A DNA stretch of 64,000 bases from Candidatus Staskawiczbacteria bacterium (GTDB taxonomy: Bacteria > Patescibacteriota > Minisyncoccia > Minisyncoccales > Staskawiczbacteraceae). The DNA is taken from the NCBI GenBank assembly GCA_903928565.1, contig CAIYRH010000002.1, positions 28 through 64,027 on the forward strand, written 5' to 3'. Position 1 is the first letter of the stretch, and each line of letters opens with the position of its first letter. The notes beneath the pieces were generated by a model. It was not told the origin of the DNA, searched no databases, and was given only the letters and a program-made list of their open reading frames with translations. The position numbers and the translations under genes were made by a program. Shown piece by piece: positions 30,591 to 44,055 of the stretch.

Positions 30591-31598
30591 ATGGCAGATA
30601 GAATATATAAAAAAAGAATTATATTCCCAAAGGGCGAGCAAACTAAATTTTTGTTTGTTCAAATAAAAAGAGCTAATATCTCTTGGTCTAAATTAGCAGA
30701 AAAAATAAACATTAATATAAGAACATTAAATGACTGGAAAAGAGAAAACTACTCAATACCCGTTGATAAACTAGAAAAAATTTGTAAGATTTCTGGTTCA
30801 AAAATGCCTAAAAATATTAAATTAAAAAATCCCTTTTGGTATACTTTTAAGGGCGCTAAATTAGGAGCAATTGTTACTTTAAATAAATATGGTAGAGTGG
30901 GTGGTGATCAGGCCTACCAAAAAAAGAAATGGTATGAATGGTGGAATAAAAAAGGTAAATACAGAAAAACAGGGTGTATAATAAAACCATTACCCATAAA
31001 AATTCCTCGCTTCTCTAAAAATCTTGCAGAATTTACGGGAATTATGATAGGAGATGGCGGGATGACTAAAGGGCAAATAACGATTTCTACAAATAGCGTA
31101 GACGATAGACAATATGGATATTTTGTAAGAAAATTAATAAAAAAATTATTTAATTTAAATGCTTCAATTTATTATGTGGAGGGCGTGCGAGTGATGACGA
31201 TTGCGGTTTCACGAAAAAAGTTGGTTGAATTTTGTAGTAAAAAATTAGGATTGCATATAGGAAATAAATTAAAGCAAGGATTAGATATCCCAAGATGGGT
31301 TAGAAAAAATCCTGAATTTGAAAGGGCATGTGTAAGAGGAATTATGGATACAGATGGAAGTATATTTAATGAATGTCATAATATTAAGGGTAAAAAATAT
31401 AGTTATAAAAAATTGTGTATTGTGAGTGCATCACCCGAGTTGAGACAATCTATTTTTAGAATTTTGGAAAAAAATAGCTTGTCACCAAAAATCAAAAGTG
31501 GTAGGTGTGTGCAAATAGAAGCCAGAATAAATATTGATAAATATTTTAAAATTATTGGCACAAGCAATCCTAAGCACTTGAAAAGATACTATAAATAA
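30591..31598 (+). CDS. Free-standing LAGLIDADG-family endonuclease-like protein with N-terminal HTH region
   Basis: Two LAGLIDADG motifs, LAEFTGIMIGDGGM and CVRGIMDTDGSI. No flanking intron or intein context seen. Confidence 0.7.
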   Translation: MADRIYKKRIIFPKGEQTKFLFVQIKRANISWSKLAEKININIRTLNDWKRENYSIPVDKLEKICKISGSKMPKNIKLKNPFWYTFKGAKLGAIVTLNKYGRVGGDQAYQKKKWYEWWNKKGKYRKTGCIIKPLPIKIPRFSKNLAEFTGIMIGDGGMTKGQITISTNSVDDRQYGYFVRKLIKKLFNLNASIYYVEGVRVMTIAVSRKKLVEFCSKKLGLHIGNKLKQGLDIPRWVRKNPEFERACVRGIMDTDGSIFNECHNIKGKKYSYKKLCIVSASPELRQSIFRILEKNSLSPKIKSGRCVQIEARINIDKYFKIIGTSNPKHLKRYYK

Positions 31599-33925: not shown

Positions 33926-34318
33926 ATGGAAAATAAAAAAACATTTGCGTGTGCAATAAATTGTATGGACGGCAGGGTGCAAGACGCTGTTAAAAATTAT
34001 ATGAAAGAAAATTATGGTGTTGATTGGGTTGACCAAATTACCGAGCCTGGTCCAAACAAAATATTATGCGAACATAACGATTGCGACCTTGCAGTTATTG
34101 AAGATATTAAAAAAAGAGTTGAAATTTCGGTTGGTCACCATGGTTCAAAACAAATAGCTATTGTTGGGCATTTTGGGTGCGCGGGCAACCCAGCTTCAAA
34201 AGAAGAACAAATTGAGCAACTTAAAAAGTGTAGGGGAGTTATTGATTCATTTGGTTTTCCGGTTGAAGTTGTTTTATTATGGGTTGACGGCGACTGGACA
34301 ACAGTGGAAAAAATTTAG
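33926..34318 (+). CDS. Small beta-carbonic-anhydrase-like protein (CxDxR / HxxC motifs)
   Basis: CMDGRV and VGHFGCAGN reproduce the beta-CA zinc-ligand spacing, but 130 aa is shorter than canonical enzymes. Confidence 0.4.
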   Translation: MENKKTFACAINCMDGRVQDAVKNYMKENYGVDWVDQITEPGPNKILCEHNDCDLAVIEDIKKRVEISVGHHGSKQIAIVGHFGCAGNPASKEEQIEQLKKCRGVIDSFGFPVEVVLLWVDGDWTTVEKI

Positions 34319-34354
34319 TTTGTAGTTTCATTTTGTTAGTTGTATAATAAATAA

Positions 34355-35680
34355 ATGAAAAAAATATTATTCGTAATATTTCTACTAACCACTGTTTTAA
34401 CGTTTCAACCCGCGCATGTTTTTGCTGTTGATAATAAGGCTCAGCCAAACGGCATAACAAATTGTTTTGATTATTATCACTTTCAAAGTGTTCAAACAAT
34501 CATAGTTGCTGAAAACCATAATATTTCAGCTGGCGATAAAATAACTTTCTCTGGAAAAATAAATAACCAAAATAATTACCCAATTGTTTCGGGCACTCTT
34601 TACGTAAAAATTATGCGAAGTGCTGGTTTTTCAATGGCAAATGGTTTTGATGTTGTTGACCAATTTGTAGCAAAAGAAAATGTTATAATTCCTGCCAATG
34701 GAAGTACTAATGTTTCTTTTCCATGGAAAGTGCCGGTGGCCACAACTTCGGGAACGTACAAATTAGTTAGTTATTTTGTAGTTGATAATAAGTTTAATTT
34801 ATTGGGCTTAAGTTTTACAGACGACATTACTGGAAACATTTCTGAATTTATTGTTGCGGGGCAAAAAAACAATGTGCAGTTTGATAAAGCGGGTGTTGTT
34901 GTAAATAAAAACCCGTATGGAGTTGCCAGTTTTGCACCAATGATTCCTAATAAAGAGGCCGCAGATGTTTCATTAAAAATAAAAAACACAACTGCCGAAG
35001 ACGAAAATGTTAAAGTAGATTACAGCTTGTATGAATGGGACAGCATGAACCCAGCTAATTTTGTGCGAACAACTTCACAAAATGTAAATGTAAAAGCCAA
35101 TTCAACTGCCACAACAGAAATTACTATAAACGACAACACCGCTTCAGTTTATTATTTAATTGCAACGTTAAATTATAAAGATTCAAAATCTATTGTGGGC
35201 ATTAGGTTTGTTAGGCCAGAAAATAATAGGTTAAGACTTAACTTCCCTTCAATAAATAATTTTCCAATAAAAAAGGGAGAAAACTCTACTGTATTTAGTT
35301 GTTTTCACAATGGTTCGGCAAGCGTGCAACCGGTTAATGGAAAATTAGAACTGCAGGTTTTAGATAGTTTGGGAAAAGTTGTAAGCAATTTCACATATGC
35401 GGGGCCAATTAGTGGAGCAATGACAGCTGCTAAAAAAGATTTTGTTTCAAAAACAACTTTAGACCATTTTTATGTTTTGGCAAAATTGTATGACGGAAAT
35501 AAATTAGTTGACCAATCTAAATTGGAATATGACTGCCAAAAAATAGACCCAAAAACTTGCAACCCAAAACCAAATGTTTGGGTGTATGTTATTTTAGTTA
35601 TTATTATATTGTTGGCAATAATTATTCCGCGAGTTATTAGTGCAAAGAAAAAAGTTGTAGAAAAAACAAATGAAATTTAA
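34355..35680 (+). CDS. Secreted beta-rich protein with C-terminal TM anchor, 441 aa
   Basis: Signal peptide MKKILFVIFLLTTVLTFQPAHVFA and C-terminal anchor VWVYVILVIIILLAIIIP-RVISAKKK. No family recognised. Confidence 0.7.
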   Translation: MKKILFVIFLLTTVLTFQPAHVFAVDNKAQPNGITNCFDYYHFQSVQTIIVAENHNISAGDKITFSGKINNQNNYPIVSGTLYVKIMRSAGFSMANGFDVVDQFVAKENVIIPANGSTNVSFPWKVPVATTSGTYKLVSYFVVDNKFNLLGLSFTDDITGNISEFIVAGQKNNVQFDKAGVVVNKNPYGVASFAPMIPNKEAADVSLKIKNTTAEDENVKVDYSLYEWDSMNPANFVRTTSQNVNVKANSTATTEITINDNTASVYYLIATLNYKDSKSIVGIRFVRPENNRLRLNFPSINNFPIKKGENSTVFSCFHNGSASVQPVNGKLELQVLDSLGKVVSNFTYAGPISGAMTAAKKDFVSKTTLDHFYVLAKLYDGNKLVDQSKLEYDCQKIDPKTCNPKPNVWVYVILVIIILLAIIIPRVISAKKKVVEKTNEI

Positions 35681-37313
35681 TTTAAAAATAATTTTCATCG
35701 TTGCCCTTACGGCTGTTTTGTTGACTCCACAAATATCTTCTGCCTATGCTGTACCGCAAAGCAAGAGCCTTAGTATACCTTTTAATTGGAGTAATTTAAA
35801 CATTACTATAAATAGTACTACGCCGTGGGAGGGGTATAATTTGAATGGCCTAAGTTACCAAGCAGCATACGGAGTGGGAGCTGCCACTATAAGTGGGGGC
35901 GTTGTAGGGTCAACAATTAATGATCAGGGCAATGTTACCTGTAACCAACAAGTTATTTTTAAAACTACTAAATCTGCAGTTTGGAACCAAACCGGTAATG
36001 TTTACGGCACGCCATATGCAGAATGGGGTACGGGAACGCCCATATTTCCATATGCAAATTTATTATTTTCTTATATTCCATCTTATACGGGTGCCCCATC
36101 TTGTCCAAGCCAGTCAAGGAAGTTTTATGTAAGCTCTGTTGTAACGCCACCGCAAGTTTCTTATTCTGTAAGCGGACTTAGAAATTGCACTAGTGGCACA
36201 GACGCTGACGGAGAATCTTATGTAATATGCACAACGTCTGGCGTAGAAAGTACCAATAGCATAACCTTTACTTTTACATCAGCCAATGCTGCCGCCACCT
36301 TTTATCAGGCATATTCAGATTATTACGATGGAACCAGCTGTTGTATTAACCTTGGCGGTGGTTCAACTTGCCACACAACCCCTGGCGCAACTTATCTTTA
36401 TCAAGCCAGTGTTAATCACATAGACAGCATGACATATAGTATGCATGTTGCTGTAGTAAACGGTGCGTGTGGAACAGCCGCTAATACTAGTGCAACTACC
36501 GGCTCTTATGTGTGGCACAATGGTGGCCAAACAGATACTTTTTCCGCCGCACAAATGTGTTCTTCTGGCGACACGCCAGCGGGTGTTAATAGTGTAATTC
36601 TTGGCGGTAACGTGGGTGATCAGGCTACGTGGACTTGTAATGGTCCTTGTGGCACGCCATCAACTTGTACCATAACAAGAACACCAACTGGTCCTGGTGT
36701 TTGCGACCCTACCAGTACAATACAATATGGCGACACCGCTAGCAGTTTTGCTGGTAATCTTTGCACTACGGGGATTTCAGTACAATCTAATTCTTCACAA
36801 ACAGCATGGACCCCAACATTCCCAACATCGGGGCACTCGGTAAGCTGGTGGTGTTATAAGGTTGGCGGAAGTTGGTCTGCCCAATGTACGGCCTCAAAAG
36901 CTGGCCCGGGCGCTTGTGGCCCGGCATCAACAGCAACATACAATAGTTGTTCAAGCAATTACTCAGGCGATTATTGCAGTTCGGGAATTCCTGTTACATC
37001 AACTTCATCAACTACATTAGGTTATCCAACGTTTCCTGCACACTGGTGGTGTTATGGCACTAATGGAGTTTACTCACCCGAATGTCATATTACAATTCCC
37101 CCGCCAACTAATGGAGCTTGCAACACAGCAGTGGGAAGTTACCCTTATCCTGGAGTGGCATATGCATTACATGCAACATTTCCAACCAGTGGTTTTTGCT
37201 CGTCTGGAGTGGTTAGGTTAAAATCTACATATTATTACAGGGTTCGCGCCACCAACGCCGGCGGACAAACAAGCGCTCCATCTGATGCTGTTGGTGTAAC
37301 AACGCCGCCATAA
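35670..37313 (+). CDS. Secreted Cys-rich repeat protein ending in an Fn3 F-G strand fragment, 547 aa
   Basis: Signal peptide, about 4 copies of the G.C...(L/F)C..G...W.C...C...(R/K) module, then an abrupt STYYYRVRATNAGGQTSAPS tail. Confidence 0.75.
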   Translation: MKFNLKIIFIVALTAVLLTPQISSAYAVPQSKSLSIPFNWSNLNITINSTTPWEGYNLNGLSYQAAYGVGAATISGGVVGSTINDQGNVTCNQQVIFKTTKSAVWNQTGNVYGTPYAEWGTGTPIFPYANLLFSYIPSYTGAPSCPSQSRKFYVSSVVTPPQVSYSVSGLRNCTSGTDADGESYVICTTSGVESTNSITFTFTSANAAATFYQAYSDYYDGTSCCINLGGGSTCHTTPGATYLYQASVNHIDSMTYSMHVAVVNGACGTAANTSATTGSYVWHNGGQTDTFSAAQMCSSGDTPAGVNSVILGGNVGDQATWTCNGPCGTPSTCTITRTPTGPGVCDPTSTIQYGDTASSFAGNLCTTGISVQSNSSQTAWTPTFPTSGHSVSWWCYKVGGSWSAQCTASKAGPGACGPASTATYNSCSSNYSGDYCSSGIPVTSTSSTTLGYPTFPAHWWCYGTNGVYSPECHITIPPPTNGACNTAVGSYPYPGVAYALHATFPTSGFCSSGVVRLKSTYYYRVRATNAGGQTSAPSDAVGVTTPP

Positions 37314-37317
37314 AAAA

Positions 37318-40300
37318 ATGCATAAAGTATTCAAAATAACATTTTTAAATAAAAAAATAAAATTTGCAATATTTTTTGCAGTAATTTTTATTTGTGTTTT
37401 TATTCTTCCAAAACAAGTTTATGCGCAAGTTGCAACGCCAACTTTAACGAGTATCTCTGCTTCACCTAGTTCTGTTTCGGTGGGGTCTACAATAACAATC
37501 ACGCCAACTTTATCAAGTGGCCAAAGCTCGCTATCTTTTAAATGTAACGAAGATAATAATTTTGGTATAGGCGGCACAAATTTATGCACTCAGGCAGGCA
37601 CAAATTATTCAAGCCCATATACTTCAATGACGTGTACTTATGCGGCGCCAAGCGGAAGTATTTCTAGAACCGTGTACTGCAAAGTTTATAATGGCACTTA
37701 TTTTTCAACACCAGCAAAACAAGCTACGTATGCCCTAATTACCTCAGCGCCAAGTAAGCCACAGAATTTAATTGTTACTCCATATGTAGACACTACAAAT
37801 CTTTATTTAACTTGGGATGCCCCTTCTAGTAATGGAGGAACTGCAATAAACGGTTACAAAATTGAAAGGTGCAAACCAACATTTGAAGACGCTTTATGTC
37901 AAGATGAAAGTAATTGGGCGTCTTTAGATACGGCAACCGGTTTGACTTATACAGACCCGAATTTAACAACAATGCCAATGCTTGAAGATGCTGAAGGTGC
38001 AGTTACTACTTGGTTTTGTCAAAGCCCAGATTGTGGAACAAATGCAACTTGTATGGCAAAAAGAATTACAGTGCCGGTTGATGGCGTTTGTAGTTCTTCT
38101 TATAATAATCAAAATTTTTATACTTTAGCTTCCAGCTCCTCGCTTTGTTCAACGGGAAATGTTTTAAACTTTACAACAACCGCAACTGGTTGGACATGGC
38201 AATGTTCAAATCAATATAATGGAGCAATTCCAAATTGTTTAGCTAATAAAAAAATAGATGGCGTTTGTGGAGCAGCGGCGCCCCCGCCAACAAATACCAA
38301 AACTTATGATTATACCGGCTCAGTAAATACTTTTTCAGTCTCGGCTTCAGATAATTCTCAATTATGCGCTGCGGGAAGCCCGTCAGTGCAAACTGTAACG
38401 CTTGGGATTAGCGGGCCAGATGCAACATGGACTTGTATAGGTACAAGTGGGGGAGTTACTAGCCCAACCTGCACGGTGAAAAGAGGACCTGCTTGCGCGA
38501 CTGTAGCACGTTCCACCACGCAACCAATTTGTAATAGTAGTCTTTGCTTAAGTGGGTCATGTGTTTCCAACAATGATACCGCCTACAATAATAGTACTAA
38601 CGAAAAATGGTCTTGGAAATGTCAGGGCGATACGGGCACAGATCCTGTAATATGTTACGCCGATTTAAAAGGTGATTGCGGAACAGCAAATGGGCATGAG
38701 TATGCGTATTCTACAACAGCAGATCCCTTTTTCGCTAGTTCAACGGGTCTTTTAACTCTTTGCAGAACAACATTGGGCACAAATCCAACTACTCTTGCCG
38801 GACCAACTTCAACCACATCAGCAACTTGGTATTGCAAGGGCACTACCGGAGACAGTTTAAGCCAAAGCGACCAATGTTCGGCAACAAGAACAGCCGCCCC
38901 GGTTCCTGGCGCTTGTGGACCAGTAGTAACGAATCCACCAGATCCTGCAACGACAGTGGGATCAACTATTGCAATATATCCATACACTGGTTCAGATAAT
39001 ACTTTTTCAGGTGTTTCGCAATTATGCGCTTCTGGAAGTCTCTATGACAGCACGGGAAATACAGCACTTTCATCATCAGCAACAATGACGCTTAATGCAA
39101 CAGGTCCAAATGTGTCATGGATGTGCAAGGGCCAAAATGGAAGCGCCACAAATGCAACCTGCACGGTGAAAAGGGCCCCTGCTTGCGCACCAGCAGACCC
39201 CACCGCTACACAACCAATTTGTAATAGTAGCCTTTGTTTAAGCGGATCATGCACCGCTAATAGTGATACAAATTTTAATAATCATATTAATCAACAATGG
39301 TCTTGGAAATGCACAGGTGACACAGGAGCTGGCACAACAATATGTTACTCGCCTTTAAATGGTACTTGTGGAGATTACACATATAACCTCACCAGTTACC
39401 AATATCTCAACACCGCTTCAGCTTGGCATACTATTTCAACTACATATTGCGCCACGGGCTCGCCAAGTAATTCGCCTTTATTTTCTTCGCTTACCAGCAA
39501 CAACCCATTAAGCTGGACATGTAACGGTGTGGGCACGGGATACAACTCCCAGTCTTGTCAAGCAACAAAAGCGGGCAGTATCAACGGTGTATGCGGAGCA
39601 AACGGTTCTGGCTATCTTGGTTCTGCAACCGTTAGGCATTATGCCTCCGCTTCTTACAGCGCCTGGCCAGGAATTGGTGCAACAGATTTTTGTACCTCTG
39701 GTAGCCTTAGCATTGATGGCACATCTGCTTTAACCCCAGTTAATTCAACTACTGTTCCCGGTTTTCCTTCTCCATCAAGCTCATCGCTATTTACAACTTG
39801 GTATTGTCTGGGTTCTGGAACGGGAGCAACAACTCCTACGTGTTATGCATATCTTGATGTTGACGGTGCTTGTAATACAAATGTTGCAAAAACTTATGAT
39901 TATAATTCTGGAAATTCAAACGCCCTTACGCCGCTGTGTAATTCAGGAGACCCATATAATATTGACACCAGCGGCGTGCTAACCACATCAATTTCGAGTG
40001 GAAGTTTGACGCTTTCTGGAACTGCAGGCCAAACAGCAAATTGGAAATGTAAAGGTAAAAATAACGGGGCTAATAGTGCGACTTGCACTGCAACAAGAAA
40101 TTACCCCGATGTTACTGCATTGTGCGCGGTTTTATCACCAACATCAGCTATAGCTAATATAGGAGATTCTGTAACGTTCAGAGCAACTCCCGGCGGAGGC
40201 CGAGGTGTTGGCACATATTCATATAGCTGGTCGGGAGACAACGGTCTTTCTGGAACAACATCGACTACTTCAGCAATATCTTACACATCATCGGGCGTGA

Positions 40301-42180
40301 AAAATGCATATGTCACGGTAACCTCAAACAGCGCTTCAACAACCAGCACCAGTTGTCCAGTGACAATTAGGCCCCAATGTGGCACAAAAGGCACAACTGC
40401 AGGTAGATATTATGTCGCGGGCACTTCTGGCTGGCCAACCGGTACTTCAGAAACATTTTGTGACGCTGGTTCATATCCAGTTCTCGATTCTAGTTCTGGC
40501 TCTACTGCCCAAATTACTCCAGGATTTCCATCTGGTGGTAGCACATCAGCGACCTGGTCTTGTTATAATTTAAGTGGAAATATGCATTCGGATTTATGTT
40601 CCGCTTATCTTGTTGTAAATCCTGCTTGTGGTGATGCAGGCAGTGCTGGCACGTTAGCTAATGGCGTTGTAACTTCTGGAGGTGTTTCATACCCGCAAGT
40701 GGGCTCAACGGGAGATACTTTTCCAGCTGGAAATTATTGCGGGTCATTATCGGCTGCGCGTGTATGGCTCCACCCTACAACTCAAAATACCCTTGGCACA
40801 ACAGGTGGGTCATATTCAAGTTGGAGTTGTGGAGGAATAAATACTACAAATACTGTTACCTGTTATGCAAAAAGATCATACAGTGCTGTTGGTGCAAGTT
40901 GCTCTGGTACTTCTAGTGGTTCTTCTGGCCCTATAAATTTACCGGTTGGTGGAAGTGTAAGTGTTTTATGGTCAGCTGTTGGTGTTACTGGCGGCGTATC
41001 ACCATATTCTTACAGTTGGTCTGAAGTAAGCTCTATGTCTAATCCTTTTAGTTCTTATAGCTCTGCAACAAAAAACTATACAACAACTGGAACCAAGACA
41101 GTATATTTTAAAGTAACTGATTCTGCTTCTAGCACTGTTACTCCTTTGCCATCTTGTAGTATAGATATAAAACAAGATGGTGCTTGTGGTTCGGCACAAA
41201 CGAATTCACCATACTCATATAATGGCATGTCTACGCCTTTCAATGCGTCTCAATTATGCAATTCTGGGGTTGCATATAATTCATCGGGGGTATCTGTTGC
41301 CGATTCATCTATAGCGCTTTCGGCCAACAGCGGTGCATCGCTCAACTGGCAGTGCAGAGGACTAAATGGTGGCACTACACCTTCAGATTGCACCGCCACT
41401 CGATTGTCTCCACCAGTTGTTGACAGCTTGGTGGCAAACGAGACGGATTGTGGTTTTAACGGGAACAGTACCTTGAAATTAAATTGGAAATATTCTAGTG
41501 CTGGAGGTTTTGCTGAGAAAAAATTTGACTTAGAAATTGCTCACTCAAATACCTTTTCATCCTCTACGACAGATTTTTCAAGAACAATTATCAGCGCTGC
41601 AGTCAGCCAGTCGTTTTACATAAGATCAAGATTATTAAACGATGGTTCAAATGAAATACTTTTTAATTCAGCAAACCTCCCTGCTGGTACAAAATATTAT
41701 TGGAGAATAAGAGTTTACGATACTCAAGATCAAAATTCAGGTTGGGTTTACTATGGTGGAACTTCTACCACTACAGATGCGAATGGAAATAAAATTTATT
41801 CTGGCACGATTCTGTCTTCGTCGGCAATTACATTTAACCCACCTTTGCACGCTTGGCCTTATGCGGTAATTAGCCTTACGCCACCCGAGCCAGTAGCTAA
41901 ACAACAGGTTACGTTTTCGGGACTTGGCTCATCTTGTTATAATGCCAGTGGGGCTGTTACGTGCCCAAGTAATGCCTATCAATGGTACAACTTAGATACA
42001 AACCCAAAAACCACAGGATCCTCAGCCCCAACCTTTGTGACCACTTACCCTGTGCTAGGTTCACATAGTGAACAACTGGTAGTTACCGACTTAGAGGGAA
42101 ATAGTTGCTCTGCTACAACTTCCTTTACTGTGAAAAGTCCTTCAGACGTGCCTCAATGGAAAGAAATTTCGCCATTCTAG
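37318..42180 (+). CDS. Giant secreted Cys-rich repeat protein (Ig-like N-domain, partial Fn3, about 13 Cys-repeat modules, PKD-like domains), 1620 aa
   Basis: Signal peptide. Fn3 A-E strands PSKPQNLIVT...LTWDAPSSNGGTAINGYKIER. Repeated modules end in CTVKR/CSATR/CTATR. PKD-like segments (YSYSWS...) and a C-terminal PKD. Confidence 0.8.
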   Translation: MHKVFKITFLNKKIKFAIFFAVIFICVFILPKQVYAQVATPTLTSISASPSSVSVGSTITITPTLSSGQSSLSFKCNEDNNFGIGGTNLCTQAGTNYSSPYTSMTCTYAAPSGSISRTVYCKVYNGTYFSTPAKQATYALITSAPSKPQNLIVTPYVDTTNLYLTWDAPSSNGGTAINGYKIERCKPTFEDALCQDESNWASLDTATGLTYTDPNLTTMPMLEDAEGAVTTWFCQSPDCGTNATCMAKRITVPVDGVCSSSYNNQNFYTLASSSSLCSTGNVLNFTTTATGWTWQCSNQYNGAIPNCLANKKIDGVCGAAAPPPTNTKTYDYTGSVNTFSVSASDNSQLCAAGSPSVQTVTLGISGPDATWTCIGTSGGVTSPTCTVKRGPACATVARSTTQPICNSSLCLSGSCVSNNDTAYNNSTNEKWSWKCQGDTGTDPVICYADLKGDCGTANGHEYAYSTTADPFFASSTGLLTLCRTTLGTNPTTLAGPTSTTSATWYCKGTTGDSLSQSDQCSATRTAAPVPGACGPVVTNPPDPATTVGSTIAIYPYTGSDNTFSGVSQLCASGSLYDSTGNTALSSSATMTLNATGPNVSWMCKGQNGSATNATCTVKRAPACAPADPTATQPICNSSLCLSGSCTANSDTNFNNHINQQWSWKCTGDTGAGTTICYSPLNGTCGDYTYNLTSYQYLNTASAWHTISTTYCATGSPSNSPLFSSLTSNNPLSWTCNGVGTGYNSQSCQATKAGSINGVCGANGSGYLGSATVRHYASASYSAWPGIGATDFCTSGSLSIDGTSALTPVNSTTVPGFPSPSSSSLFTTWYCLGSGTGATTPTCYAYLDVDGACNTNVAKTYDYNSGNSNALTPLCNSGDPYNIDTSGVLTTSISSGSLTLSGTAGQTANWKCKGKNNGANSATCTATRNYPDVTALCAVLSPTSAIANIGDSVTFRATPGGGRGVGTYSYSWSGDNGLSGTTSTTSAISYTSSGVKNAYVTVTSNSASTTSTSCPVTIRPQCGTKGTTAGRYYVAGTSGWPTGTSETFCDAGSYPVLDSSSGSTAQITPGFPSGGSTSATWSCYNLSGNMHSDLCSAYLVVNPACGDAGSAGTLANGVVTSGGVSYPQVGSTGDTFPAGNYCGSLSAARVWLHPTTQNTLGTTGGSYSSWSCGGINTTNTVTCYAKRSYSAVGASCSGTSSGSSGPINLPVGGSVSVLWSAVGVTGGVSPYSYSWSEVSSMSNPFSSYSSATKNYTTTGTKTVYFKVTDSASSTVTPLPSCSIDIKQDGACGSAQTNSPYSYNGMSTPFNASQLCNSGVAYNSSGVSVADSSIALSANSGASLNWQCRGLNGGTTPSDCTATRLSPPVVDSLVANETDCGFNGNSTLKLNWKYSSAGGFAEKKFDLEIAHSNTFSSSTTDFSRTIISAAVSQSFYIRSRLLNDGSNEILFNSANLPAGTKYYWRIRVYDTQDQNSGWVYYGGTSTTTDANGNKIYSGTILSSSAITFNPPLHAWPYAVISLTPPEPVAKQQVTFSGLGSSCYNASGAVTCPSNAYQWYNLDTNPKTTGSSAPTFVTTYPVLGSHSEQLVVTDLEGNSCSATTSFTVKSPSDVPQWKEISPF

Positions 42181-42971
42181 CCCTCTCTGGCGATGGCAAT
42201 TCCCCAAACTTGTTTGGCGCCATTTGCGTATAAAGTTTTTGCGCATTCTTCCATTGTAGAACCGGTTGTATAAACGTCGTCAACCAAAAAAACCTTAGAA
42301 AATTTTGTGAAGTCGGACTTAACAAAATTTTTGTTTATACTAAATGCACCAACTAAATTTTTTTCTCTTTCCTCTTTTTTTAATTTCATTTGTGCCTCGG
42401 TCTGTTTTATCTTTATTAAATTATTTAAAATTACAGGAACTTTTATTATTTTTGATAATTCTTTTGCCAATTCTTCAGATTGGTTGTAGCCACGGCTTTT
42501 TAGTTTCTTTTTATCTGTGGGCACGGGAATTAAAACTGAATTTTGCCAAATATTTTCGGTATTTTTTTTCGCCAAAACAAAATGTTCAACAATAACACTG
42601 GCTAAAGTTTTTGATAAATCTTTTAAGTAGGGCTTATATTTAAATTGGTAAATTAATTTTTTGGTCAAATTATGTTTGTAGGGGAGGGCACAATAAAGCC
42701 CAAAAAGGATTTTATTTTGGCACCGGTGGCACTTGCCCTGAGTTGGTACATAAATTTGAATGGGCTTATTACTACACAAACAATAATCAAATTCATTAAT
42801 ATCTAAAAGGTGCCGGCAATCGTCGCATAAATAGGTGCCTTCTTTTTGGCAACCTAAGCAAAATTTAGGAAATAGAATGTCTAAAATGGGGTTATCCACA
42901 GTGTTGTTTTGTTTATTACATTGTATAATAAAATTGAGTATGGCATCAAATCCACTGCAAGATTTTAACAT
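42177..42971 (-). CDS. comF: ComF-family protein (phosphoribosyltransferase domain)
   Basis: N-terminal Cys pairs FPKFCLGCQKEGTYLCDDC and the PRTase motif VFLVDDVYTTGST. Start is uncertain; I chose ATG 42971 to avoid overlap with pilM. Confidence 0.7.
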   Translation of the reverse strand: MLKSCSGFDAILNFIIQCNKQNNTVDNPILDILFPKFCLGCQKEGTYLCDDCRHLLDINEFDYCLCSNKPIQIYVPTQGKCHRCQNKILFGLYCALPYKHNLTKKLIYQFKYKPYLKDLSKTLASVIVEHFVLAKKNTENIWQNSVLIPVPTDKKKLKSRGYNQSEELAKELSKIIKVPVILNNLIKIKQTEAQMKLKKEEREKNLVGAFSINKNFVKSDFTKFSKVFLVDDVYTTGSTMEECAKTLYANGAKQVWGIAIAREG

Positions 42972-43005
42972 AAGTAAGTTGAATATTTTCTCCAACCCCT
43001 TGAAG

Positions 43006-44055
43006 ATGTTTTTTCCTAAAAAAATGATAGGAATAGACATTGGAACGGCCTCAATTAAGGCAGTTGAATTATCAAGGTGGGGCCAAGGAAAAACCCTAGA
43101 AAATTACGGAGAAATAAAATCATCTTCGCTTTACAAAGAGCCCTTCATAAATGGTGATAGAGGTGGTTATTTGTTGTCTAATTATTTTGTCGCACGAGCA
43201 ATTAGGGCAATTTTAGATGAATCAAAAATAAGAACCAAAGCTGCAATTTTTTCTATTCCAGATTTTTCAACATTTTGCACATCTTTTGAATTGCCCCCAA
43301 TGAACCCCAATGAATTAAAAGATGCAGTTTATTATAATGCTTCGCAATACATTCCATTGCCGGTGGCAGAAACAACTTTAGATTGGCAATTAATTGGCGG
43401 AGTTCCCGGTGACAAACAATCGGCTTTAAAAATATTTTTGGTGGCAATTCCAAACCAAATAATTCAAGATTATCAAAAAGTAGCGCAATTAGCCGGCTTA
43501 GAACTTTATGCGGTTGAAGCTGAAGTTTTGGGACTGGTAAGGGCGCTGGTTAGAGGAAAAAGAAATTGCATTTGCATGGTAGATGTGGGCGTGCAAAGCA
43601 CAACAATTAACATTGTTGACAACGGAGTTTTGAAAAAGAGCTATAGTTTTGATTTTGCCGGCAGTCAGCTTACTTACAGTATTGCCTCGGCGTTAGATTT
43701 GGGGCACCAACAAGCTGAGGAATTAAAAAATAAAGAAGGGCTAACTTCTTCCAGAGAAGAAATTTCCAAAACATTATATTTATTAATTGACCCACTTGTA
43801 ATTGAAGTAAAAAAAATATTATCAGATTATTACCAGCAAGAAGGCAAAGACCCAGACGAAATTTATTTAACCGGCGGTACTTCCAATTTGCCTGGTCTTA
43901 AAGAGTATTTTTCAGAAGTTTTAAAAAGAAAAGTGGAAATTCCAAATTGTTTTTCCGAACTTTTATACCCGCCAATTTTGGGTGATACTATTGAAAAAAT
44001 AGCACCAAGTTTTGCTGTGGCAACAGGCGTGGCATTGGGGGGATTAGAAACATAG
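43006..44055 (+). CDS. pilM: Type IV pilus assembly protein PilM (actin-like ATPase fold)
   Basis: MFFPKKMIGIDIGTASIKAVEL..., ...LTGGTSNLPGL. An alternative start at 42940 is possible. Confidence 0.8.
   Translation: MFFPKKMIGIDIGTASIKAVELSRWGQGKTLENYGEIKSSSLYKEPFINGDRGGYLLSNYFVARAIRAILDESKIRTKAAIFSIPDFSTFCTSFELPPMNPNELKDAVYYNASQYIPLPVAETTLDWQLIGGVPGDKQSALKIFLVAIPNQIIQDYQKVAQLAGLELYAVEAEVLGLVRALVRGKRNCICMVDVGVQSTTINIVDNGVLKKSYSFDFAGSQLTYSIASALDLGHQQAEELKNKEGLTSSREEISKTLYLLIDPLVIEVKKILSDYYQQEGKDPDEIYLTGGTSNLPGLKEYFSEVLKRKVEIPNCFSELLYPPILGDTIEKIAPSFAVATGVALGGLET

What the first reader, a model, noticed from the sequence alone, without database searches (positions are those of the whole stretch)
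37212..37968. Reciprocal split of an Fn3 domain and a Cys-repeat at the junction of two giant surface-protein genes
Seen: the 547-aa gene ends with the first half of a Cys-repeat (NGACNTAVGSYPYPGVAYALHATFPTSGFCSSGV) fused abruptly to the F-G strands of a fibronectin type III domain (VRLKSTYYYRVRATNAGGQTSAPSDAVGVTTPP, stop; 37212-37313). Four nt later the 1620-aa gene starts with its own signal peptide and an Ig-like domain. Then come only the A-E strands of an Fn3 (PSKPQNLIVT..LTWDAPSSNGGTAINGYKIER..GLTYTDPNL; 37750-37968), fused to the second half of a Cys-repeat (..TTWFCQSPDCGTNATCMAKR). Conceptually removing about 37212-37968 rejoins one Cys-repeat, and circularising the removed piece rejoins one Fn3. 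Inference: a circular cassette (signal peptide + Ig + Fn3), opened within its Fn3, integrated into a repeat of one ancestral giant gene. This split it into two separately secreted proteins. Alternatively it reflects module shuffling by recombination.
Basis: inference. Interest (0 to 1): 0.6.

Follow-up and report, generated by a model that had tools for sequence, protein, structure and literature searches.

The report
Surface-protein gene split by permuted insert
In an uncultured Candidatus Staskawiczbacteria genome, a repeat-rich surface-protein gene appears to have been cut in two by a 0.76-kb piece carrying a rearranged small secreted-protein gene, leaving matching half-domains on either side; this is a neat but single, unreplicated scar of gene evolution.

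Summary
Gene 1 (35670-37313, 547 aa) ends with the N-terminal half of a four-Cys repeat fused to Fn3 strands F-G. Four nt later, gene 2 (37318-42180, 1620 aa) starts with a signal peptide, a complete Ig-like domain and Fn3 strands A-E, fused to the C-terminal half of a Cys repeat.

- **Cys repeat:** a profile of the 15 intact repeats matches the two halves at nodes 2-41 and 44-75.
- **Fn3:** the rejoined Fn3 passes Pfam's threshold (33.7 bits). Neither natural protein does.
- **Reading frames:** deleting 37212-37968 in silico gives one 1917-aa ORF. Circularising that piece gives a 250-aa ORF.
- **Common origin:** both Cys halves are closest to the same intact repeat.

The three-gene block is lineage-specific. 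It sits in a variable spot that is empty or holds other cargo in the related genomes where both flanking genes are seen. No homologue, unsplit allele, recombination site or recombinase was found, and structure prediction was uninformative.

The most likely reading is an illegitimate-recombination scar that split one adhesin-like gene into two co-transcribed secreted proteins. The circular intermediate is unproven. Reassembly of the split halves is possible but untested.

The parts
34355..35680 (+). Upstream gene (441 aa). It has a signal peptide, an Ig/CBM-like domain and a C-terminal TM anchor. It overlaps the gene-1 start by 11 nt and is the likely first gene of the operon.
   Evidence: Mannosidase_ig 24.7 bits; hydrophobic C-terminus read from the translation
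35670..37313 (+). Gene 1 (547 aa): signal peptide, orphan N-domain, 3 intact Cys repeats, then the chimeric tail.
   Evidence: no Pfam or NCBIfam hit; only itself in the protein database
36456..37100 (+). Three intact four-Cys repeats of gene 1 (residues 263-477).
   Evidence: repeat HMM domains of 62.1, 52.1 and 56.9 bits
37107..37211 (+). N-terminal half of a Cys repeat (C1 at residue 484, C2 at 510), ending ..FCSSGV.
   Evidence: matches HMM nodes 2-41 only; closest intact repeat is gene 1 267-333
37212..37313 (+). Fn3 strands F-G (VRLKSTYYYRVRATNAGGQTSAPSDAVGVTTPP) plus the TAA stop.
   Evidence: adds about 11 bits and extends the PF00041 match to profile position 80 when joined to A-E; collinear with 1023 Fn3 instances
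37314..37317 (+). 4-nt spacer AAAA between stop and start. No terminator is predicted here.
   Evidence: A-rich starts without a Shine-Dalgarno motif are the rule in this genome
37318..37425 (+). Signal peptide of gene 2 (..ILPKQVYA|QVA).
   Evidence: read from the translation; local GC drops to 26-31%
37426..37743 (+). Complete four-Cys Ig-like domain.
   Evidence: three homologous copies in the unrelated 1412-aa protein P0098, E 1e-12 to 1e-15, covering query residues 4-98 of 106
37744..37968 (+). Fn3 strands A-E, with a Cys-Cys insertion in the C-C' loop.
   Evidence: PF00041 profile 1-38 at 22.8 bits alone; 3249 Fn3-type hits in the exhaustive search
37969..38067 (+). Atypical linker (TMPMLEDAEGAV) plus the C-terminal half of a Cys repeat (TTWFCQSPDCGTNATCMAKR).
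   Evidence: matches HMM nodes 44-75 only; closest intact repeat is again gene 1 267-333
38077..41406 (+). Twelve intact Cys repeats of gene 2 with two PKD-like domains interspersed. Includes an internal duplication of a three-repeat block.
41464..41745 (+). Intact Fn3/Ig-like domain near the gene-2 C-terminus.
   Evidence: PF25788 Ig_Rha78A_N, 28.3 bits
37318..42180 (+). Gene 2 (1620 aa) as a whole. Its stop overlaps the convergent comF-like gene by 4 nt.

Best explanation
This is a genuine rearrangement scar in a fast-evolving, lineage-specific surface-protein operon (p441, gene 1, gene 2) of a Candidatus Staskawiczbacteria (CPR) chromosome.

A segment of about 0.75 kb lies in frame inside the variable loop of one unit of a Cys-repeat array. 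Its order is Fn3 F-G, stop, AAAA, start, signal peptide, Ig-like domain, Fn3 A-E. That is a circular permutation of a 250-codon SP-Ig-Fn3 reading frame.

Consequences (shown):
- The upstream part of the array now terminates as a 547-aa protein with a CysN/F-G chimeric tail.
- The downstream part is translated from the segment's own start and exported with its signal peptide, as a 1620-aa protein beginning Ig / Fn3 A-E / CysC.

Origin (inferred): one illegitimate, non-site-specific recombination event. It could be integration of a circularised copy opened in the E-F turn, or, equivalently, copying of a unit-length stretch out of a tandem pair of such genes. In either case, if the break in the ORF and the break in the target have the same codon phase, both junctions are in frame together.

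Function (inferred): the two genes are co-transcribed and both products are secreted. They are probably adhesin-like. The four half-domains are most simply unfolded or loosely packed remnants of a recent event.
For: - The halves are complementary in both domain types.
- The virtual excision gives a 1917-aa ORF and the virtual circle a 250-aa ORF.
- Both Cys halves have the same nearest intact repeat. Chance expectation is about 1 in 15, and only 7 of 15 intact repeats pass this test themselves.
- The C-half at the head of gene 2 is closest to a repeat of gene 1, which links the two arrays.
- The rejoined Fn3 is undecayed, above Pfam's threshold.
- The Ig-like domain is complete.
- There is no terminator between the genes, and the 4-nt spacing is like other gene starts in this genome.
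- The locus is a recombination-prone spot. p441, gene 1 and gene 2 are absent from all 29 related loci. The p130-comF interval is 3-22 nt in 7 of them and holds unrelated cargo in others.
- A second sample's contigs diverge exactly around the gene 1-gene 2 block.
- Assembly artefact is unlikely.
Against: - No unsplit allele, no relative of either gene and no free-standing SP-Ig-Fn3 homologue were found.
- As a circle, the segment would have only 4 non-coding nt. That is oddly tidy for a random excision.
- There is no recombination site and no recombinase.
- The rejoined E-F turn is 1-2 residues too long.
- The linker TMPMLEDAEGAV is unlike the other repeat loops.
- Similarity of outside Fn3 domains to A-E does not predict their similarity to F-G (rho 0.06). 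The two pieces therefore cannot be shown to come from one domain.
- Junction 2 rests on a single assembly.
Confidence: 0.5

Rival explanations
1. Stepwise decay of a collinear ancestor. One long gene once read ..Cys-Fn3a-Ig-Fn3b-Cys.. . A stop, a start and a signal peptide arose or were inserted in the Fn3a-Ig linker. Two separate in-frame deletions then removed CysC+A-E of Fn3a and F-G+CysN of Fn3b. On this view F-G and A-E come from two different Fn3 domains and nothing was ever circular.
For: - The order F-G / Ig / A-E is collinear with an Fn3-Ig-Fn3 layout.
- The tight 4-nt stop-start spacing is natural for fission inside an ORF.
- The signal-peptide stretch is a distinct AT-rich block.
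- A-E and F-G cannot be tied to one domain.
- Gene 2 shows other internal duplications, so the array is recombinationally active.
Against: - It needs three or more events, with deletion end-points that happen to be complementary in both domain types.
- Both Cys halves resemble the same intact repeat, whereas this model derives them from two different units.
- The only homologues of the Ig-like domain found (P0098) alternate with a non-Fn3 domain.
Confidence: 0.2
2. Functional split-domain clasp. After secretion, the gene-1 tail (CysN + F-G hairpin) docks onto the gene-2 head (A-E + CysC). This rebuilds one Fn3 sandwich and one Cys repeat, possibly disulfide-locked, so the two chains form a single long surface fibre. 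This concerns function and is compatible with any origin.
For: - The halves are exactly complementary and their hallmark residues are undecayed.
- The genes are adjacent, co-oriented and without a terminator, and each has a signal peptide.
- An A-E fragment lacks the central F strand and cannot fold alone (established Fn3 architecture).
- Engineered FN3/monobody fragments do reassemble non-covalently, although the cut there was in the CD loop (PMC11666773, citing Dutta et al. 2005).
Against: - There is no direct evidence.
- No relatives exist to test for conservation.
- Lack of decay is equally explained by a recent event.
Confidence: 0.12
3. Assembly or binning chimera: the junctions do not exist in any real genome.
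For: - This is a metagenome-assembled contig.
- Junction 2 is seen in one assembly only.
- Contigs from another sample break or diverge at 35665 and 41726.
Against: - No k-mer of 17 nt or more is shared near either junction.
- Junction 1 and the gene boundary are identical in an independent ENA assembly.
- Both junctions are in frame and domain-complementary, which a random misjoin would not produce.
Confidence: 0.05

Closest known systems
Circular permutation and gene fission in multidomain proteins (duplication-then-truncation, or fission/fusion models; from my own knowledge of the protein-evolution literature, e.g. Weiner and Bornberg-Bauer 2006)
   Same: A reading frame appears in permuted order (F-G before SP-Ig-A-E), and one gene has become two adjacent genes.
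   Different: - The break lies inside domains, not between them.
- The permuted unit sits inside another domain.
- Two reciprocal half-domain pairs result.
- The new downstream gene gains a ready-made signal peptide.
Integron gene cassettes (circular, promoterless ORFs integrated by IntI at attI/attC)
   Same: The idea of a small circular ORF-sized element integrating into a chromosome.
   Different: - There is no attC; only 4 nt are non-coding.
- No IntI or other recombinase was found among the 33 ORFs scanned.
- The opening point lies inside the ORF and the target lies inside a coding repeat.
Partial domains / domain atrophy (from my own knowledge: Prakash and Bateman 2015; Triant and Pearson 2015)
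   Same: Truncated Fn3 and truncated repeat units sit in otherwise intact proteins.
   Different: Most reported partial domains are annotation artefacts or one-sided losses. Here the missing part of each domain is present in the neighbouring gene.
Donor-strand complementation in chaperone-usher pili, and engineered FN3 fragment complementation (PMC11666773; Dutta et al. 2005 as cited there)
   Same: An incomplete beta-sandwich could be completed by strands supplied from another chain.
   Different: - Two strands (F-G) would be donated rather than one.
- A second half-domain pair sits alongside.
- There is no chaperone or usher.
- Nothing here shows that complementation occurs.

Membership tests
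Fibronectin type III domain (PF00041) | Match over the whole seven-strand profile above the gathering score (25 bits) | tested here: not met
   Neither natural protein hits fn3. A-E alone scores 22.8 bits over profile 1-38, and the gene-1 tail alone gives no hit. Only the artificial join reaches 33.7 bits over profile 1-80 of 84.
Cys-repeat family of this locus (no public family) | All four conserved Cys/Trp positions (C1, C2, WxC, C4) in one unit | tested here: not met
   The gene-1 tail has C1 and C2 only (nodes 2-41). The gene-2 head has WxC and C4 only (nodes 44-75). The join has all four. The repeat has no Pfam, NCBIfam or PDB match, and a word-based database search found nothing.
Integron gene cassette | attC recombination site downstream of the ORF | tested here: not met
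   Only AAAA lies between stop and start. The inverted repeats found nearby are AT-rich matches of 72-80% inside the signal-peptide coding region.
Integron gene cassette | IntI tyrosine recombinase and attI nearby | tested here: not met
   No recombinase, integrase or transposase domain was found in the 33 ORFs scanned across the window. ORFs at 50-60 kb were not scanned.
Insertion sequence / transposon | Transposase gene, terminal inverted repeats, target-site duplication | tested here: not met
   The segment encodes only SP-Ig-Fn3 parts. There are no terminal inverted repeats. The only shared junction sequence is TTAA, at 37218 and 37963, which is not distinguishable from chance in an AT-rich genome.
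Donor-strand complementation (chaperone-usher type) | Incomplete Ig-like fold completed by a strand of a partner subunit, with chaperone and usher genes | not testable with these tools
No chaperone or usher family appeared in the scanned neighbours.
Circular permutation of an ORF | Joining the 3' piece behind the 5' piece restores a collinear, in-frame, full-length homologue | tested here: met
   The virtual circle gives a 250-aa ORF. Its Fn3 aligns collinearly with 1023 Fn3 instances and passes Pfam. No natural unpermuted homologue of the whole SP-Ig-Fn3 unit was found.

The most novel reading that the evidence does not exclude
The two proteins form a natural split-domain heterodimer. The CysN + F-G tail of gene 1 and the A-E + CysC head of gene 2 reassemble outside the cell into one complete Fn3 and one complete, disulfide-bonded Cys repeat. 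A single insertion event would then have turned one fibre protein into a two-chain fibre carrying an extra Ig-Fn3 branch. That would be a natural counterpart of engineered fragment complementation, and a two-strand relative of donor-strand complementation.
Probability: 0.12. Interest if true: 0.75.

Novelty: new variant of a known kind. Interest (0 to 1): 0.4.

Why it matters
If the single-event reading is right, this locus is an unusually legible snapshot of how a long repeat adhesin gene can be split. One small insertion supplies a stop, a start and a signal peptide. It leaves complementary half-domains that could, in principle, keep the two products associated.

That would give a concrete, testable route for gene fission without loss of function in the fast-evolving surface proteins of CPR bacteria. 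These proteins are thought to mediate attachment to host cells.

As it stands this is one case in one metagenome-assembled genome, with no relatives. Its value is as a lead, not a result.

Tried and rejected
1. **Homologue searches for an unsplit form.**
   - Gene 1 against the 5.8-billion-protein index found only itself.
   - Gene 2 residues 36-320 and a profile of the 15 Cys repeats found nothing. Gene 2 is itself hidden in that index, because its cluster representative is a 169-aa fragment.
   - JGI metagenome scans with gene 1 and gene 2 found nothing.
   - A viral-contig scan with the virtual cassette found nothing.
2. **Synteny.** 29 related loci were fetched through PilM. None holds any relative of p441, gene 1 or gene 2.
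3. **Exhaustive HMMER with Ig + A-E.** It returned 3249 hits, but nearly all are generic multi-Fn3 giants. Only P0098 shares the Ig-like domain.
4. **Same-origin test for A-E and F-G.** Score correlation over 1023 outside Fn3 domains gave rho 0.06, so the test is uninformative.
5. **Structure prediction.** Both native pieces gave pLDDT 32-34 from single sequences.
6. **Junction repeats.** 13-14-nt similarities between the gene-1 3' end and the junction-2 linker looked suggestive (D2 and D11; protein DAVG-VTT versus DAEGAVTT). I rejected them as compositional, because the same tail scores as high or higher against other repeats.
7. **Read-through or frameshift fusion.** Gene 2 is in the +1 frame and an A7 run follows the stop. 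However, the P-site codon CCA cannot re-pair in the +1 frame, and a fusion would bury a signal peptide. I did not pursue this.
8. **PDB and NCBIfam searches for the Cys repeat.** No match.
Full report
**What is there.**
The window is a chromosomal stretch of a Candidatus Staskawiczbacteria (Parcubacteria/CPR) genome. The closest syntenic loci all carry that name, with PilM 61-85% identical. Three co-oriented genes lie between a Pro_CA_2-type gene (33926-34318) and a convergent comF-like gene (42177-43040):
- p441 (34355-35680): signal peptide, Ig/CBM-like domain, C-terminal membrane anchor.
- Gene 1 (35670-37313, 547 aa).
- Gene 2 (37318-42180, 1620 aa).

Gene 1 overlaps p441 by 11 nt. Gene 2 starts 4 nt (AAAA) after the gene-1 stop, in the +1 frame. 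No terminator-like site lies between them. A-rich starts without a Shine-Dalgarno motif are the norm in this genome. The three genes are therefore most likely one transcript.

**Checking the observation.**
The text of the finding is correct at the stated coordinates.

*Fn3.*
- Pfam finds no fn3 in either whole protein.
- The A-E stretch alone gives 22.8 bits over profile positions 1-38, below the 25-bit cutoff. The gene-1 tail alone gives nothing.
- A-E followed by the gene-1 tail gives 33.7 bits (E=4e-8) over profile 1-80 of 84.
- The join aligns collinearly with 1023 near-full-length Fn3 instances taken from 150 unrelated proteins. Its E-F turn is 1-2 residues longer than usual.

*Cys repeat.*
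- The unit is C1 (GxCG), C2 (LCxxG), WxC, C4 (CxAxR). There are 3 intact copies in gene 1 and 12 in gene 2.
- In a 76-node HMM of those 15 copies, the gene-1 tail matches nodes 2-41 (17.8 bits). The gene-2 head matches nodes 44-75 (13.3 bits). The join matches 2-75 (25.7-30.5 bits).

*Frames and assembly.*
- Deleting 37212-37968 (757 nt) in silico gives an open 1917-codon frame. Circularising that piece gives a 250-codon frame: SP, Ig, complete Fn3, stop.
- Nothing of 17 nt or more around the junctions recurs in the window.
- An independent ENA contig is identical across junction 1 and the gene boundary, window 35278-37623.
- Junction 2 is seen only in the window's own contig.

**Internal evidence on origin.**
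- Among the 15 intact repeats, the N-half in gene 1 is most similar to gene 1 residues 267-333 (score 59).
- The C-half in gene 2 is also most similar to that same repeat (57; next best 51).
- Intact repeats show the same agreement between their halves in 7 of 15 cases. Chance agreement is about 1 in 15.
- This is modest support that the halves were once one unit. It also ties the head of gene 2 to the gene-1 array.
- The Ig-like domain is complete. Three homologous copies (E 1e-12 to 1e-15) occur in one unrelated 1412-aa surface protein, P0098, where they alternate with a non-Fn3 domain.
- I could not show that A-E and F-G come from one Fn3. Across outside Fn3 domains, similarity to A-E does not predict similarity to F-G (rho 0.06).

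**Junction sequence.**
There are no meaningful direct or inverted repeats at the junctions. Both junctions can be slid onto a shared TTAA (37218 and 37963), which keeps both frames. Four AT-rich bases are not evidence. Two short similarities between the gene-1 3' end and the linker after junction 2 looked interesting. They are compositional, because the tail scores as well or better against other repeats.

**Comparative context.**
- None of the 29 related loci has any relative of p441, gene 1 or gene 2.
- In 7 of them, the Pro_CA_2-type gene and comF are 3-22 nt apart. In others the gap holds unrelated genes: a CDP-alcohol-transferase-like membrane protein, a response regulator, a pilin-like protein, a GIY-YIG-like protein, and a 686-aa secreted protein.
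- The 7.8-kb block is therefore lineage-specific cargo in a variable spot beside the type IV pilus / competence genes.
- No relatives were found in JGI metagenomes, in viral contigs or in the protein indexes.
- The Cys repeat has no Pfam, NCBIfam or PDB match.
- No recombinase was found among the 33 ORFs scanned.

**Structure.**
Single-sequence AlphaFold2 of gene 2 residues 36-320 and gene 1 residues 410-547 gave mean pLDDT 34 and 32, which is uninformative.

**Interpretation.**
The fewest-event explanation is that a roughly 0.75-kb segment, a circular permutation of an SP-Ig-Fn3 reading frame, entered the variable loop of one Cys repeat by illegitimate recombination.
- With equal codon phase at the two breaks, one reciprocal event makes both junctions in frame.
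- The segment's stop ends the upstream protein. Its start and signal peptide rescue export of the downstream part.
- A circular intermediate and a unit-length copy from a tandem gene pair are formally equivalent, and I cannot choose between them.
- The tidy 4-nt non-coding content of the would-be circle counts against a random excision.

The main rival is stepwise decay of a collinear Cys-Fn3-Ig-Fn3-Cys ancestor, by fission plus two deletions. It explains the tight spacing. It needs more events and coincident end-points, and it fits the same-repeat result less well.

An assembly chimera is unlikely.

Whether the half-domains are inert remnants or re-associate is undecided. An A-E fragment lacks the central F strand and cannot fold alone (established Fn3 architecture). 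Engineered FN3 fragments can reassemble (PMC11666773, citing Dutta et al. 2005). The hallmark residues are undecayed, but a recent event explains that equally well.

**Verdict.**
- The underlying processes (illegitimate recombination, gene fission, permutation) are known. The reciprocal two-domain split with a donated signal peptide is an unusual variant.
- Interest is moderate. It would be high only if the split halves are shown to reassemble.

Noticed in passing
window 35665 and 41726; L032 1852-1884; L031 1-105: Contigs from a second sample of the same study match the window perfectly up to 35664 and again from 41726, then continue with unrelated sequence. On the left, a different ORF start (MKYERSFVRVR..) replaces gene 1. 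On the right, there are stops in gene 2's frame. This suggests a co-occurring strain in which gene 1 and most of gene 2 are replaced or deleted, or else chimeric contig tips.
   Followed up: partly
window 34318-42177; L002-L025 (interval between the p130 and comF homologues): The interval between the Pro_CA_2-type gene and comF is a variable spot in Staskawiczbacteria. It is 3-22 nt in 7 genomes. In others it spans 0.4-3.4 kb of unrelated cargo: a CDP-alcohol-transferase-like protein, a response regulator, a pilin-like protein, a GIY-YIG-like protein and a 686-aa secreted protein.
   Followed up: partly
window 38266-39558 (gene 2 residues 317-747): A block of three Cys repeats (317-385, 393-446, 454-520) is duplicated as 533-615, 623-676, 684-747. 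The middle units share the motif QPICNSSLCLSGSC. This is an internal segmental duplication within gene 2.
   Followed up: partly
window 37308-37320: The gene-1 stop is followed by an A7 run (CCA TAA AAA AAT G), and gene 2 lies in the +1 frame. Skipping the T of TAA would read straight into gene 2. A programmed shift seems unlikely, because there is no re-pairing P-site codon and a signal peptide would be buried.
   Followed up: no
window 37426-37743; P0098 residues 641-736, 851-944, 1057-1150: The four-Cys Ig-like domain of gene 2 has no Pfam family. It recurs three times in an unrelated 1412-aa membrane-anchored surface protein, so it is an undescribed domain family.
   Followed up: partly
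window 30591-31598: An ORF combining an HTH (Cro/C1-type) domain with a weak LAGLIDADG-like match lies just upstream of recQ.
   Followed up: no
whole window (gene starts): None of 39 gene starts examined has a Shine-Dalgarno motif within 25 nt; only 4 show a bare 4-nt partial match (AAGG/GAGG). Upstream regions are A/T-rich, so this genome appears to use initiation that does not depend on a Shine-Dalgarno sequence.
   Followed up: partly
window 42835-44055: The mechanical PilM ORF starts at a GTG that overlaps comF by about 200 nt. The conserved protein begins near 43024 (MFFPKKMIGIDIG..), so the long ORF start is probably wrong.
   Followed up: partly
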